From NCBI GenBank assembly GCA_964016885.1, contig OZ024741.1, forward strand, positions 128,588,001 to 128,652,000: 64,000 nucleotides of DNA, given 5' to 3'. Position numbers and translations under genes: made by a program. Source of the stretch: Eledone cirrhosa (lineage: Eukaryota). Positions 1,196 through 38,874 of the stretch are shown here, piece after piece (within the stretch, counting starts at the first letter, position 1; every line of letters starts with the position of its first letter). The notes beneath the pieces are model-generated. The model had not been told where the DNA came from, made no database searches, and saw only the letters and a program-made list of their open reading frames with translations.

Positions 1196-1613
1196 ATTGT
1201 AGTTTGGGGACCACGCATTGAAAACGTGTTCTGTTGTGGAGATCAGCTGCCCACTTGATGTAAAACGTTGTCAGAAAAAATACAGGAGAAGGAGGACATC
1301 TACGGACCATTGATGAGGAGTTTACAAATCCAGTATCCAAGAGACACCTTTAGCTTCATACCCATCATTATTGGTGCTTACGGGTTATATACCAACCCGC
1401 TTGGACCAAAGTATGACTGAAACTTGGATTTGCGGACAAAAAGCGCAGCTCCCTAATTCATAGTCTACAAATGGCTGCGATAGCTGGCACCTTCAAAATT
1501 TGCAAAACATTCTTGCGATTCAAGGGATGACAATTTCTTTTCTTTTACAAACCTTGCCACCAGGAAGGTGGCCGGTCAAAAAAAATATACTCGAAATTAA
1601 GAGAAAGAGAAAA
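1196..1613 (+). mobile_element. 5'-truncated R4/Dong-like non-LTR retrotransposon 3' end (restriction-like endonuclease) in (TACA)n
   Basis: Frameshifted translation IVVW-DHALKTCSVVEISCPLDV..IQEKEDIYGPL..FIPIIIGA.G..ICKTFLRFKG* (TGA 1528-1530) aligns by eye with the RLE domain at 19105-19680. 3'UTR hairpin gccacc-aggaa-ggtggc. TACA repeats on both flanks. Confidence 0.75.
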
Positions 1614-1929
1614 CATACATACATACATAAGGAAAATTACAAGTATAATCCATTAATGGAACAGTAAAAATATGTAAAACATTTCAAAAAATGTTGCATC
1701 TAATAACTGCATATACACATGTACAGATGCAAAGCATATACACATGCACACATACAACTCAAAACATCCACACCCCACACATACAATAACATCCATATCT
1801 ACACATGCATACATACATATCTACCTAGTTGATGTTGTGTAAATTCCAATGAGAGAGTCTTGTGTCTATGTTAGAAACCGACTCTCTCTCTCTATTGGTA
1901 AAACTTTGTGAAATTATAAAAACCAGAAG

Positions 1930-2625
1930 AACATACATACGTACATACGTACATACGTACATACATACATACATACATACATACATACATACATACATAC
2001 ATACATACATACATAACATACAGATTCATGATCTAACATACATACATAACTTACATACATATATAACATACATACATACATACATACATTACATACATAC
2101 ATACATACATACATATATAACATACATACATACATACATACATACATAACATACAGATTCATTATCTAACATACATACATAACTTACATACATATATAAC
2201 ATACATACATAACATACATTCATACATATATATATACATACATACATACAATACATAACATACATGACATACATTCATACATATATACATACGTACATAA
2301 TATACATACATAACATACATGACATACATAATATACACACATACATAACATACATAATATATGTATAAACATACATACATACATAATATTACATATATAC
2401 ATATTGATGATCGTTGTTAACTGATTAAGATTCTATTAAATAATTTACTAACGTACAGTGTATGTGTGTGTATATATATATATAATCACATACATACATA
2501 CATAAACACACATACATGTATGTATGCATACATACATACATACATGTATGTATGTATGTATGTATGTATGTATGTATGTATGTATGTATGTATGTATGTA
2601 TGTATGTATGTATGTATGTATGTAT
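1930..2625. repeat. (TACA)n and (TATG)n microsatellite blocks
   Basis: Directly visible. Confidence 0.95.
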
Positions 2626-3060
2626 GTGGCCATCCAAAATCACTGGGAGAGATGACCCCCTTAGCCTTTGTCAAGGCAGAATTCTAGGAGAAGGAAAACT
2701 CTGATATAACACCTGCAACCCTGATGGTATCCAATGATGTTGACTTGTCCCCTTCTTTTTGGTAAATATCATCTTGGTTAAGAGAGTGGGGACTGGCTTT
2801 GTGGCAGTGCCTTTGCTCACTATAAAAAGCTTCACGGCACAGGCATTGCTTTGTATCTGGAGATCTCTCTGCACTTGTCGTCACATGGCACCAAAGGCAA
2901 AGCACTATGTGTCAATAATTGTCACAAGTGTAGTGTTTGTACCAGAGTTTTCAAGTCGCTGGCTGGACTAAAAAGTCACACTCGTTCAGCGCATCGGTAG
3001 GGGTTCTCCTACATGGATATAAAGTAGTGGCCGTACTCGAAAACGAGTTGGCAGCCACCA
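2626..3060 (+). mobile_element. Short non-autonomous RTE derivative (5'UTR joined to 3' end) in (TATG)n
   Basis: RTE 5'UTR-like motif ctaggagaaggaaaactctga (~2684-2704). C2H2 finger CSVCTRVFKSLAGLKSHTRSAHR* (2929-3000). Terminal stem-loop gtggc..ctcg-aaaa-cgag..gccac, then a (TATG)n tail. Confidence 0.65.
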
Positions 3061-3939
3061 TGTATGTATGCATGTATGCATGCATGTATGTATGTATGTA
3101 TGTATGTATGTATGTATGTATGTATGTATGTATGTATGTATGTATGTATGTATGTATGTATGTATTATATATATATATATATATATATATGTATATATAT
3201 ATATTTAAATATCGACTTTCCCGTCAGTGCAAGAGCTTCCCAGTAACTCTTTAACTCTCTTTGCTGTTGATATTGATAATATAGAAATATCTATAGAAAC
3301 CAAAACAGCAAAATGGAAAAAAAAATCAAACGGAAATATAAATAGCAAACACCGACTTTAGAAAATATGATGAAGTGTTTTAAACGGAATTCCCTACTTC
3401 GATATCTAAGGAAAACTTAAATATTGATTTTTTTCTGGGATGAAATATGTATAGTGAAATGTGTATAGGAAAAAGTGGGCATACATATGATCATATGTGT
3501 ATATATGCAAGAATAATTGTGTGTGTGTAGGTATATATATATATATATATATATATATATATATACATATAACAGAGACCATGATGTACCTATATATACA
3601 TATATATAATCAAGAACTCACCCGTCGAGCTCTGGACTCTCTACTATTCTTACACTCTACTATCCCAAGTATCGAATACTCTACTGAATAATGGTCTTAC
3701 TAGCTGAAAACTGATATCTCCTCTCCTCGAGAGAGGGAGAGAGAGAGAGAGAGAGAGAGGAGAGAGGAGATACACACATACATAAATACAGAGAGAATGT
3801 TATATATATGTGTATATATATATATATATATATATATATATATATATATATATATATATATATATATATATATATATATATATATATAAAACGGTGATGA
3901 TGCTGATGATAATAATATATATACACCCCCGTCTCCTCT

Positions 3940-37800: not shown

Positions 37801-38247
37801 GCCTGGCAGTGCTACCGGGGGGCTCTACCCGTTCGAGAGAGGCTCTACAGACACGGGCGCCCGGGCAGGGATCCCTCAAAAAAGATTTGCCCTAGATGCG
37901 TGCGTCACGAAGAAACCGTTGCGCACGCATTGGTGCAATGTCCGGGCGTGGCTGATCTGTGGGGCTACGCCGAACGACTGCTGTCGCGGGTGGCGCCGAT
38001 TAAATTGACCGCCGAGTCCGTGATGACAATCAAACCGCCTCCCCTCTTCACAAAGGAAGCAAAGGCGGTTTTTCTGTGCGTAATAGCCATGTTGAAAGAG
38101 GTTGTTTGGTGGACACGATTGAAAGGTCTGAGGTCAAGCAACTTCCTCTCTGGCCATAGTCTGGTCTACTTCTTCCGATATCACTTCAGAAGAAGGATAA
38201 GAATGGAGAGAGAGGTGGCCACAGGCAGTTTTATGAAAGGTGGGTGA
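34875..38247 (+). pseudogene. Tx1-like ORF2: APE endonuclease + reverse transcriptase + C-terminal CCHC, about three frameshifts
   Basis: CLNARGL, VYSP, GDWN, SYLDRF, TDHK; KSPGLDG, FRPITLLN, DQSKAFD, RQGCPLS, AYADD; CPRC..EETVAHALVQC. Breaks near 36080, 37110 and 37490. Confidence 0.92.
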
Positions 38248-38533
38248 TAGTGGCGAGAATGGCTCGTGTAAATGGGCCTTCTCTGTATACCATCCTGTAG
38301 GTAAAGAAGTAAAGGAGAGGGGAGCACCTTCTCCATGTGCTCCCCGGGCAAAGGATTGCACACTTTTTCGGGGGTGTGTGCAACCCCCATCACGTCCCCT
38401 CCCTTTTGAGGTTATTTTCGATTATTTTCATGTTACACCCTTTTTACTCGATTATATGTAAACTCCCCCTTTGTATTTGTCCCTTCTTTTTATGCCTTTA
38501 TGGTAAATAAAGAAATATATCTATCTCTATCTA

Positions 38534-38609
38534 CACGTTTTTATTGTATGTAAACTTCCCCCTTTGTATTTGTCCCCTTCTTTTGTGCCCCTGTGGCTAA
38601 TAAAGAAAC
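38534..38609 (+). mobile_element. Second, ~75-bp 3'-end copy of the Tx1-like family
   Basis: Diverged repeat of ~38445-38515, again ending AATAAAGAAA followed by TATCTATCTATCTCTATCTA. Confidence 0.8.
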
Positions 38610-38874
38610 ATATCTATCTATCTCTATCTATCTCTCTCTCTCTCTCTCTATATATATATATATATATATATATATATATATATATATATGGAGGTACGAA
38701 ACAATATATATATATATATATATATTGTCCCGTACCTCCATAGTCACATACGGCGTTTCTAGGGCATTTTAAAATCTGGCGGCGCCCATTCCTCTCCAGG
38801 TCTGAGTACAGCAGATTTCTTCCAGAGAAGGATAGGTAGTGAAAGAGGGGAAATGAAAAAGAGGTATAGAGAAA

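What the first reader, a model, noticed from the sequence alone, without database searches (positions are those of the whole stretch)
1196..38633. A guild of retroelements, each sitting in its own microsatellite motif
Seen: five different retroelement families each have one repeat motif on both flanks: R4-like in (TACA)n (1196-1613), RTE derivative in (TATG)n (2626-3060), Dong-like in (TAA)n (five copies), PLE in (TA)n (29925-31745) and Tx1-like in (TATC)n (two copies). Known: Dong targets TAA repeats, Tx1-clade Kibi/Koshi target TC/TTC repeats, and PLEs favour TA-rich simple repeats. Inference: the elements partition microsatellites as insertion niches, and their tails and TSDs regenerate the targets, which could help drive the extreme microsatellite load of this genome.
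Basis: partly seen in the sequence, partly recalled or inferred. Interest (0 to 1): 0.75.

Follow-up and report, generated by a model that had tools for sequence, protein, structure and literature searches.

The report
Jumping genes share microsatellite landing pads
In this animal genome (likely an octopus), each of several jumping-gene families sits in one particular short DNA repeat and on one particular strand, likely because its enzyme cuts there; unrelated families share the same repeat from opposite strands, and together they touch only a minority of the genome's simple repeats.

Summary
All five elements are real, and their repeat preference holds genome-wide. At 5' junctions of other copies the motif is ACAT in 31 of 39 R4-like, AAT in 30 of 33 Dong-like, TATC in 33 of 41 Tx1-like, ATGT/TA-type in 29 of 29 RTE-derived and TA in 11 of 30 Penelope-like copies. 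Background is 0.06-0.4% (TA 4%, ATGT/TA-type 7%); a control SINE scores 2 of 30. Duplicated interruptions show that targets pre-exist.

The 'one family, one motif' reading fails. TACA and TATG are one repeat read on opposite strands. A missed second R4-like family (1634-1930) also uses ACAT, and a Tx1 relative (63% identical ORF2) uses ATT, opposite Dong's AAT. Neighbours follow a strict strand rule.

These families abut 45 of 756 arrays in 600 kb of random DNA (8% of microsatellite bases; 71% of AAT, 41% of ACAT), so they do not explain the bulk load.

Microsatellite targeting is known (Dong, Kibi/Koshi, Waldo, PLEs). This scan already noted the AAT sharing, the GATA Tx1 and TA PLEs on other DNA. 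I found the ACAT-targeting R4/Dong lineage in neither the papers nor the scan notes searched.

The parts
1145..1196 (+). (CATA)13 array, 5' flank of R4-A copy
1197..1612 (+). R4-A: 5'-truncated 3' end of a 4.2-kb R4/Dong-type LINE (restriction-like endonuclease); family found in ACAT
1613..1628 (+). (ACAT)4 between R4-A and R4-B
1634..1930 (+).
1931..2627 (.). ACAT array that flips to ATGT at about 2544: one microsatellite class on both strands
2628..3059 (+). 5'-truncated copy of a 606-bp non-autonomous, likely RTE-derived element; family found in ATGT, TA and mixed arrays
3060..3189 (+). ATGT then TA array, 3' flank of the RTE derivative
18604..18640 (-). Dong-A 37-bp 3' stub followed by A24 and (TAA)7
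18689..18941 (-). Dong-A truncated copy with full 3' end, (AAT)n on both sides
19032..21789 (-). Dong-A 2.75-kb copy (RT, CCHC finger, endonuclease; frameshifted); 5' end fused to the next piece
21785..22038 (-). Dong-A piece lacking its last ~70 bp, joined to the long copy over a 5-bp overlap; 5' flank (AAT)8
22082..22357 (-). Dong-A truncated copy with full 3' end; 5' flank (AAT)30 at 22358-22447
22579..22795 (+). Control SINE-like repeat (about 225 bp) whose other copies show ordinary target duplications and almost no microsatellite at the 5' end
29926..31748 (+). 5'-truncated Penelope-like element (RT C-terminus, CX4CxxC linker, GIY-YIG-like nuclease, pseudo-LTR) between (TA)n arrays
32667..32711 (+). 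(TATC)n array, 5' flank of Tx1-A
32712..38532 (+). Tx1-A: full-length two-ORF LINE (ORF1 33099-34838 with zinc knuckle; ORF2 APE endonuclease + RT, frameshifted here)
38543..38625 (+). 83-bp 3'-end stub of a related Tx1 subfamily, followed by TATC/TC/TA

Best explanation
Each retroelement family sits in one simple repeat on one fixed strand, likely because its own DNA-binding and nicking domains pick out a pre-existing array, where the element would be reverse-transcribed in place and would duplicate about 12-29 bases of the array. Shown: the motif and strand bias at 5' junctions, interrupted target duplications, sharing of motifs between families, and the strand rule among neighbours (R4-A and R4-B on ACAT with the RTE derivative on ATGT; Dong-A and Dong-B on AAT with Tx1-B on ATT; Tx1-A on ATCT; PLE and RTE derivative on TA). 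Inferred: because both halves of a split array stay usable, later copies land beside earlier ones and build trains. Inferred from known families: specificity rests on the N-terminal Myb/SANT-like domain plus restriction-like nuclease in R4/Dong types, on the APE nuclease hairpin loop in Tx1 and RTE, and on the CX4CxxC-GIY-YIG module in the PLE; pairing of the RNA 3' end with the nicked strand may add to it. The net gain of repeat per insertion is inferred to be a few units, enough to matter for AAT and ACAT arrays but not for the dominant TA and CA arrays.
For: 5' 30-nt test, window's own copy left out: R4-A ACAT 31 of 39 (26 of 34 truncated), Dong-A AAT 30 of 33 (28 of 31 truncated), Tx1-A TATC 18 of 23 plus 15 of 18 further 5' ends, RTE derivative (RT)6 29 of 29, PLE TA 11 of 30; background 0.0036, 0.0014, 0.0006, 0.067 and 0.040. 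Cross-use of other families' motifs was 0 in the matrix, apart from TA (8 RTE), one ATT (Dong) and two CA (R4). R4-B ACAT 10 of 13, control SINE 2 of 30; Tx1-B ATT 30 of 30. In 600 kb of random DNA, 18 of 18 resolved 5' junctions of R4, Dong and RTE-derivative copies lay in the family motif (read by eye, two imperfect). RTE 5' and 3' flank G content correlate, rho 0.75, 0 of 10,000 permutations; interrupted duplications such as 29 nt in L194 and 12 nt in L040 and L049, 18 nt in L158. Neighbours within 300 nt: RTE 12 of 12 opposite and R4-B 6 of 6 same strand as R4-A; Tx1-B 11 of 11 opposite, Dong-B 8 of 8 same as Dong-A (alignment pieces). Three-helix N-terminal domain of R4-A predicted at pLDDT 81, top matches Myb/SANT/trihelix, Z 5.0-5.8, in line with PMC7998251.
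Against: No empty orthologous site or biochemical test was available, so cutting specificity is inferred. Truncated Tx1-A copies met the strict test in only 2 of 6 cases. PLE 5' junctions met it in 11 of 30, and TA is also the commonest array, so given any microsatellite the PLE shows no extra preference. For R4-A the two flanks did not correlate in composition (rho -0.03) and only 3 of 40 had an informative interrupted duplication. Some interrupted matches between TA/TG mixtures can be chance. Two pairs of R4-A copies share breakpoints and may be duplications, not separate insertions. The fold matches are below Z 8 and Foldseek gave no E under 0.001.
Confidence: 0.8

Rival explanations
1. Strict niche partition: competition has given each family its own exclusive motif.
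For: The five families of the finding hardly overlap when the strand is kept. Related families have diverged in target: Tx1-A ATCT versus Tx1-B ATT at 63% ORF2 identity; R4-A ACAT versus Dong-A AAT at 32%.
Against: R4-A and R4-B share ACAT on the same strand; Dong-A and Dong-B share AAT; several Tx1 3'-end clusters share ATT or TATC; more than ten recurrent repeat ends abut TA. Insertion does not use up a target. Nothing here measures competition.
Confidence: 0.07
2. The elements make the flanking repeats themselves, by a slipped 3' tail and by templated or untemplated additions at the 5' joint, in sites that held only a few matching bases.
For: RTE elements are reported to generate microsatellites at their 3' ends (PMC2887409, abstract). 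Dong-A ends in its own degenerate AATAACAAC, and three copies without 5' AAT still have 3' AAT runs. Arrays beside elements are longer than free ones for ACAT (median 64 vs 20, p 0.003).
Against: 5' arrays are as long as 3' arrays (medians 63/41, 82/62, 27/29, 41/22; none significant). The RTE 3' flank changes with the site and matches the 5' flank. Interrupted duplications show copied target. Tx1-A in L158 adds only about 2 nt beyond the duplicated site.
Confidence: 0.1
3. These elements drive the genome's overall microsatellite load (can hold together with the best explanation).
For: They abut 15 of 23 AAT arrays (71% of bases) and 15 of 53 ACAT arrays (41%). A library-free test finds a recurrent repeat end at 116 of 579 microsatellite blocks against 34-54 for random positions, a lower bound in 600 kb.
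Against: Overall 45 of 756 arrays, 8% of bases; 12 of 380 TA and 0 of 103 CA arrays, which hold 68% of bases. Filled ACAT sites sum to 85 nt on average against 53 nt expected from length-biased choice of free arrays; a duplication of 12-29 nt covers most of that gap.
Confidence: 0.15
4. Random insertion followed by passive retention in repeat-rich, low-constraint regions.
For: The window is repeat-rich (9.7% perfect arrays against 4.4% in random DNA). Passive accumulation was proposed for Drosophila Waldo-A/B (PMC3812793, passage).
Against: It predicts no motif or strand choice and use of the commonest arrays (TA, CA); the R4, Dong and Tx1 families use rare motifs on one strand, and the control SINE is not enriched.
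Confidence: 0.02

Closest known systems
Dong (Bombyx mori), DongAg, DongBg and ostracod Dong; R4/Dong clade (PMC3812793 and PMC7998251, passages)
   Same: Single ORF with RT and C-terminal restriction-like nuclease, N-terminal Myb/SANT-like domain, insertion into (TAA)n. Dong-A matches in all tested points. Dong-R4 families are already listed as recently active in Octopus vulgaris (PMC13282606).
   Different: R4-A and R4-B have the same build but sit in (ACAT)n, a target I did not find described for this clade; opposite-strand sharing with APE elements is not in the passages seen.
Kibi (TC)n, Koshi (TTC)n and crocodilian Tx1 families on (TTCC)n/(TTTC)n (PMC4494074, passages)
   Same: Two-ORF APE-type Tx1 LINEs that insert into a microsatellite; several targets within one lineage.
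   Different: Targets here are (ATCT)n and (ATT)n, in two families 63% identical in ORF2.
Waldo (ACAY)n and Mino (AC)n, R1 clade (PMC3812793, passage)
   Same: ACAT arrays used as a target; more than one microsatellite-targeting family in one genome (Anopheles gambiae holds Waldo, Mino and DongAg).
   Different: Waldo is described as APE-type; here ACAT is taken by restriction-like-nuclease elements, a convergent choice.
Neptune, Nematis and Naiad Penelope-like elements (PMC8557442, passages)
   Same: CX2-5CxxC linker before the GIY-YIG nuclease, pseudo-LTRs, inverted 5' parts, bias for (TA)n.
   Different: None shown; clade not fixed by a tree.
Bipartite non-autonomous RTE elements and RTE-tailed SINEs (PMC5786205, PMC6007223, passages; PMC2887409, abstract)
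   Same: Short non-coding element with RTE-like ends and a microsatellite-like 3' end; target duplications that start with A.
   Different: Here the repeat lies on both flanks and varies with the site, so it is mainly target, not tail.
SaTar Mu-like elements of guayule and rice (PMC5907723, abstract)
   Same: Many families target microsatellites and build non-nested linear arrays of unrelated elements.
   Different: Those are DNA transposons; these are retroelements with three kinds of nuclease and a strand rule.

Membership tests
R4/Dong clade (Dong-A, R4-A) | Single long ORF with non-LTR RT | tested here: met
   1141-aa ORF in L172 and 951-aa ORF in L191, RVT_1 E 6e-23 and 3e-25; best solved relatives are R2 proteins
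R4/Dong clade (Dong-A, R4-A) | C-terminal CCHC finger and PD-(D/E)xK restriction-like nuclease, no APE domain | tested here: met
   CxxC...H...C and RPD...D/E...K motifs seen in both (motif definition recalled); zf-RVT hits, no Exo_endo_phos
R4/Dong clade (Dong-A, R4-A) | N-terminal Myb/SANT-like domain without zinc fingers | tested here: inconclusive
   Conserved three-helix domain, pLDDT 81; top VIA matches Zeste, ISWI SANT, GT-1, TRF1 at Z 5.2-5.8, rmsd 2.5-6.6, 64-70 aligned, below the tool's trust level; agrees with PMC7998251
R4/Dong clade (Dong-A, R4-A) | RT phylogeny with named R4 and Dong elements | not testable with these tools
   No named reference sequences among 120 listed homologs
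Dong proper | (TAA)n target | tested here: met
   Dong-A 30 of 33
Dong proper, applied to R4-A and R4-B | (TAA)n target | tested here: not met
   0 of 40 and 0 of 13 have AAT at the 5' junction; ACAT instead
Tx1 clade (Tx1-A, Tx1-B) | ORF1 with zinc knuckle, ORF2 with APE + RT + zinc finger | tested here: met
   CxxCxxxxHxxxxC in ORF1; Exo_endo_phos, RVT_1, zf-RVT in both ORF2
Tx1 clade (Tx1-A, Tx1-B) | RT phylogeny separating Tx1 from L1 | not testable with these tools
   12 homologs, none named
Kibi/Koshi | (TC)n or (TTC)n target | tested here: not met
   TC 0 of 24 at Tx1-A 5' junctions; Tx1-B ATT 30 of 30
Bipartite non-autonomous RTE | Short, no RT coding, fixed 5' end, no tRNA head | tested here: met
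   606 bp, 19 of 30 copies start at position 1; ARAGORN finds no tRNA in 3 loci, a weak test for SINE heads
Bipartite non-autonomous RTE | Both ends shared with an autonomous RTE LINE | tested here: inconclusive
   No partner in the 2 Mb held; 3' end encodes a weak C2H2 finger (E 1e-4); the RTE label rests on recalled 5' and 3' end motifs
EN+ Penelope-like element (Neptune/Nematis type) | RT followed by CX2-5CxxC linker and GIY-YIG nuclease with CCHH | tested here: met
   1217-aa ORF in L211; CTNRKCIIC linker, VVY...YIG, two Cys and two His seen; Pfam RVT_1 only E 0.009, no GIY-YIG hit
EN+ Penelope-like element (Neptune/Nematis type) | Pseudo-LTRs, tandem and inverted 5' structures | tested here: met
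   Terminal direct repeat in L211; inverted 5' parts in 11 of 31 copies
EN+ Penelope-like element (Neptune/Nematis type) | Hammerhead ribozyme in the pseudo-LTR | tested here: inconclusive
   Rfam scan of 29700-33200 lists none at E up to 1; minimal hammerheads can be missed

The most novel reading that the evidence does not exclude
Two classes of retrotransposon enzyme split the same microsatellites by strand: restriction-like-nuclease LINEs take the A-rich strand (ACAT, AAT) and APE-type elements the complementary strand (ATGT, ATT). Each insertion renews the landing pad for the other class, a cross-feeding loop that built most long AAT and many ACAT arrays of this genome. Target switches (AAT to ACAT, ATCT to ATT) map to a few residues in the Myb helix and the APE hairpin loop.
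Probability: 0.3. Interest if true: 0.7.

Novelty: new variant of a known kind. Interest (0 to 1): 0.45.

Why it matters
Target choice by non-LTR retrotransposons is poorly understood and matters for engineering site-specific insertion. This genome offers young families with open reading frames and matched pairs that differ in target: Tx1-A and Tx1-B (63% identical ORF2, different hairpin loop) and R4-A and Dong-A. These make the specificity rules directly testable. It also puts numbers on how far such elements shape microsatellite content: much for AAT and ACAT, little for TA and CA. In practice, octopod AAT, ACAT and GATA markers will often sit next to multicopy DNA.

Tried and rejected
All-versus-all alignment to place 5' ends ran into the flanking repeats or broke at internal low-complexity stretches; replaced by alignment to single full-length copies. 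The repeat finder on the whole window was swamped by satellites. An idea that 5' arrays are longer than 3' arrays (medians 52 vs 20 with perfect runs) did not hold with imperfect runs (p 0.08-0.87). No autonomous RTE partner in the 2 Mb held. No Pfam family for the R4/Dong N-terminal domain; Foldseek gave no match at E under 0.001. No solved-structure match by sequence for the PLE protein. Rfam found no hammerhead in the PLE. Homolog searches gave almost no names, so no clade tree was built. The two primary papers on Dong and on Kibi/Koshi were not held. Rejected: five distinct motifs; two full Tx1 copies; fixed TATG tail on the RTE derivative.
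Full report
Setting. The window is G000:C2:128588001-128652000 of a 3.0-Gb assembly. The best named protein relative of one element is from Argonauta hians at 64% identity, so the host is likely an octopod (inference). Perfect arrays of 16 nt or more cover 9.7% of the window and 4.4% of 60 random 10-kb stretches; the window is about twice as rich as the genome.

1. Observation. All five elements are present. R4-like 1197-1612 is the 3' end of a 4.2-kb LINE. The RTE derivative 2628-3059 is a 606-bp element lacking its first 180 bp. 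The Dong-like pieces on the minus strand are three copies with a full 3' end, a 37-bp stub with a poly(A), and one piece fused to the long copy without TAA; the full element is 5.0 kb. The PLE is 5'-truncated. Tx1 is one full-length copy plus an 83-bp stub. TACA and TATG are one repeat on opposite strands. A sixth element at 1634-1930 belongs to a second R4-like family (R4-B), 41-57% identical to R4-A in the main translated pieces, with no DNA match.

2. Genome-wide test. I searched with element sequence only, so flanks played no part in ranking; each search scored the 40 best candidates out of 98 to 5,689. I examined 40 of 40 R4-A hits, 30 of 40 RTE, 35 of 40 Dong-A (one dropped because it ran off its locus; three junctions set by hand), 24 of 40 Tx1-A and 31 of 40 PLE. 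The test was a perfect run of 12 nt or more in the 30 nt before the 5' junction. Without the window's own copy: R4-A ACAT 31 of 39, Dong-A AAT 30 of 33, Tx1-A TATC 18 of 23, RTE ATGT 16 of 29 (any ATGT/TA-type run in 35 nt, 29 of 29), PLE TA 11 of 30 at 5' and 21 of 30 at 3'. Backgrounds from 108,799 random positions were 0.0036, 0.0014, 0.0006, 0.0036 (0.067) and 0.040. Truncated copies alone: R4-A 26 of 34, Dong-A 28 of 31, RTE ATGT 5 of 10, Tx1-A only 2 of 6. Twenty more Tx1-A 5' ends gave 15 of 18 scored, two unscored. About five PLE junctions stopped inside the element, so that count is a floor. With 20 random stretches as background, binomial P ranged from 1e-85 to 1e-11; given any microsatellite, R4, Dong, Tx1 and RTE-ATGT stayed extreme, but TA use by PLE and RTE did not exceed TA's share. 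A SINE from the same window had a microsatellite at 2 of 30 5' ends and ordinary duplications. In the random 600 kb, 18 of 18 resolved 5' junctions of R4, Dong and RTE-derivative copies lay in the family motif, read by eye, two of them imperfect. Two pairs of R4-A copies share breakpoints and may not be independent.

3. Target or product. The RTE derivative has no fixed tail: its 3' flank starts with AT in 28 of 29 copies and then follows the local array; G content of the two flanks correlates (rho 0.75; 0 of 10,000 permutations). Interrupted duplications appear in L194 (29 nt, R4-A), L040 and L049 (12 nt, RTE) and L158 (18 nt, Tx1-A). Against: R4-A flanks do not correlate (rho -0.03) and only 3 of 40 are informative; some of the 11 of 30 interrupted RTE matches can be chance. 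3' arrays are not longer than 5' arrays in any of four families. So the arrays mostly pre-exist and gain a duplication. Dong-A carries a short degenerate AAT end of its own and may add a tail. No empty allele could be seen.

4. Sharing, not partition. R4-B has ACAT at 10 of 13 truncated 5' ends, counting the window's copy. Dong-B ends in AAT. A 5.8-kb Tx1 relative, Tx1-B, has ATT at 30 of 30 5' ends, counting the query's locus, and at the 7 3' ends found in 10 fetched copies; its ORF2 is 63% identical to Tx1-A. Further Tx1 3'-end clusters are of ATT or TATC type. Within 300 nt of R4-A, RTE pieces are opposite in 12 of 12 and R4-B pieces same-strand in 6 of 6; beside Dong-A, Tx1-B is opposite in 11 of 11, Dong-B same in 8 of 8 and Dong-A same in 17 of 17 (alignment pieces, some loci overlap). 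Restriction-like-nuclease elements thus lie on ACAT and AAT, and the APE-type or APE-dependent ones on ATGT, ATT and ATCT, each 3' flank starting at or within two bases of AT.

5. Microsatellite load. In 600 kb the eight families and their diverged relatives cover 11% of bases and abut 45 of 756 arrays, 8% of array bases: AAT 15 of 23 (71% of bases), ACAT 15 of 53 (41%), AGAT 3 of 15, TA 12 of 380, CA 0 of 103. TA and CA hold 68% of bases. Earlier scan notes on TA-anchored elements prompted a library-free test: 116 of 579 blocks (23% of bases) abut a repeat end seen in another stretch, against 34-54 for five random sets. This is a floor and does not show cause. ACAT arrays beside elements are longer (median 64 vs 20, p 0.003); filled R4-A sites sum to 85 nt against 53 nt expected from length-biased choice, a gap that one duplication largely covers.

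6. Mechanism. Shown: motif, strand, duplication, sharing. Inferred from established target-primed reverse transcription: the nuclease nicks the strand complementary to the 3' flank, the RNA is copied from the nick, and a staggered second cut duplicates part of the array, leaving two usable halves. Dong-A and R4-A have one ORF with RT, CCHC finger and PD-(D/E)xK motifs, 32% identical, and share a conserved N-terminal domain predicted as three helices with Myb/SANT/trihelix as top, though modest, matches. Tx1-A and Tx1-B differ at four positions in the stretch before SYLDR, which I take from memory to be the APE hairpin loop; PMC6007223 (passages) says this loop affects cleavage pattern. The PLE has the CX4CxxC linker that PMC8557442 (passages) links hypothetically to TA bias. 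RNA 3'-end pairing may contribute (PMC6007223).

7. Known work. PMC3812793 (passages) lists Waldo ACAY, Mino AC, Kibi TC, Koshi TTC and Dong TAA. PMC4494074 (passages) adds crocodilian Tx1 on TTCC/TTTC. PMC4640811 (passages) adds Togen TG and some Hero families. PMC7998251 (passages) reports the Myb-like domain and TAA targets in insects, molluscs and cnidarians. PMC8557442 (passages) covers PLE bias. PMC2887409 (abstract), PMC6007223 and PMC5786205 (passages) cover RTE tails and bipartite elements. PMC5907723 (abstract) shows multi-family microsatellite arrays in plants. For octopus, PMC13282606 (first third and passages) lists active Dong-R4, RTE, L1-Tx1 and Penelope families and never uses the word 'target'; PMC9115989 (passages) notes a microsatellite at an RTE 3' end. 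Searches listed no paper on ACAT-targeting R4/Dong, on ATCT or ATT Tx1, or on opposite-strand sharing; I read only the listings for most hits. Kojima and Fujiwara 2004 and Xiong and Eickbush 1993 were not held, no supplements were read, and Repbase could not be searched; any of these may record such targets. This scan's notes already describe the GATA Tx1, AAT/ATT sharing and TA-anchored PLE elements on other DNA of this genome; look-ups for the ACAT family and ATGT returned nothing specific.

8. Verdict. Real and strong; a new variant of a known kind. Targeting is confirmed genome-wide, exclusive partition is not, and the effect on total load looks limited to rarer motifs. Interest 0.45.

Noticed in passing
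window 4758-17881: 13-kb satellite of a 19-bp TA/TG-rich unit (about 670 copies, 93% matches), starting right after a 200-N gap at 4558-4757.
   Followed up: no
window 32225-32331, within about 32160-32400: Near-perfect long inverted repeat, MITE-like; Rfam's MIR774 match is far below its gathering score and likely reflects only the hairpin.
   Followed up: no
window 18584-18640: Dong-A stub ends in a 24-nt poly(A) before (TAA)7 and lacks the usual terminal bases, as if copied from a polyadenylated RNA.
   Followed up: partly
window 22448-22887 and L352, L367, L369: The control SINE occurs in inverted clusters; in three loci a short ATT run at the end of a SINE piece is the array that Tx1-B sits in.
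   Followed up: partly
L133/L134 and L147-L149: Full-length Tx1-A copies stand head to tail in TATC runs, up to three in a row.
   Followed up: partly
L012, L025, L028, L030, L191, L331: Several other short elements share parts 15-190 and 190-396 of the 606-bp RTE derivative at 68-88% identity and many also lie in ATGT: a wider family of RTE-related SINEs.
   Followed up: partly
random stretches L231-L290: Recurrent repeat ends abut TA (clusters of 13, 8, 6 and more), ATC (6) and CA (3) arrays: more microsatellite-anchored families than those studied.
   Followed up: partly
window 42782-48221: Two large degenerate tandem arrays (20-bp unit about 127 copies; 51/156-bp AAC-rich unit about 2.8 kb).
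   Followed up: no
window 36087-36124: An 18-bp tandem duplication inside Tx1-A ORF2 coincides with a frameshift in this copy.
   Followed up: no
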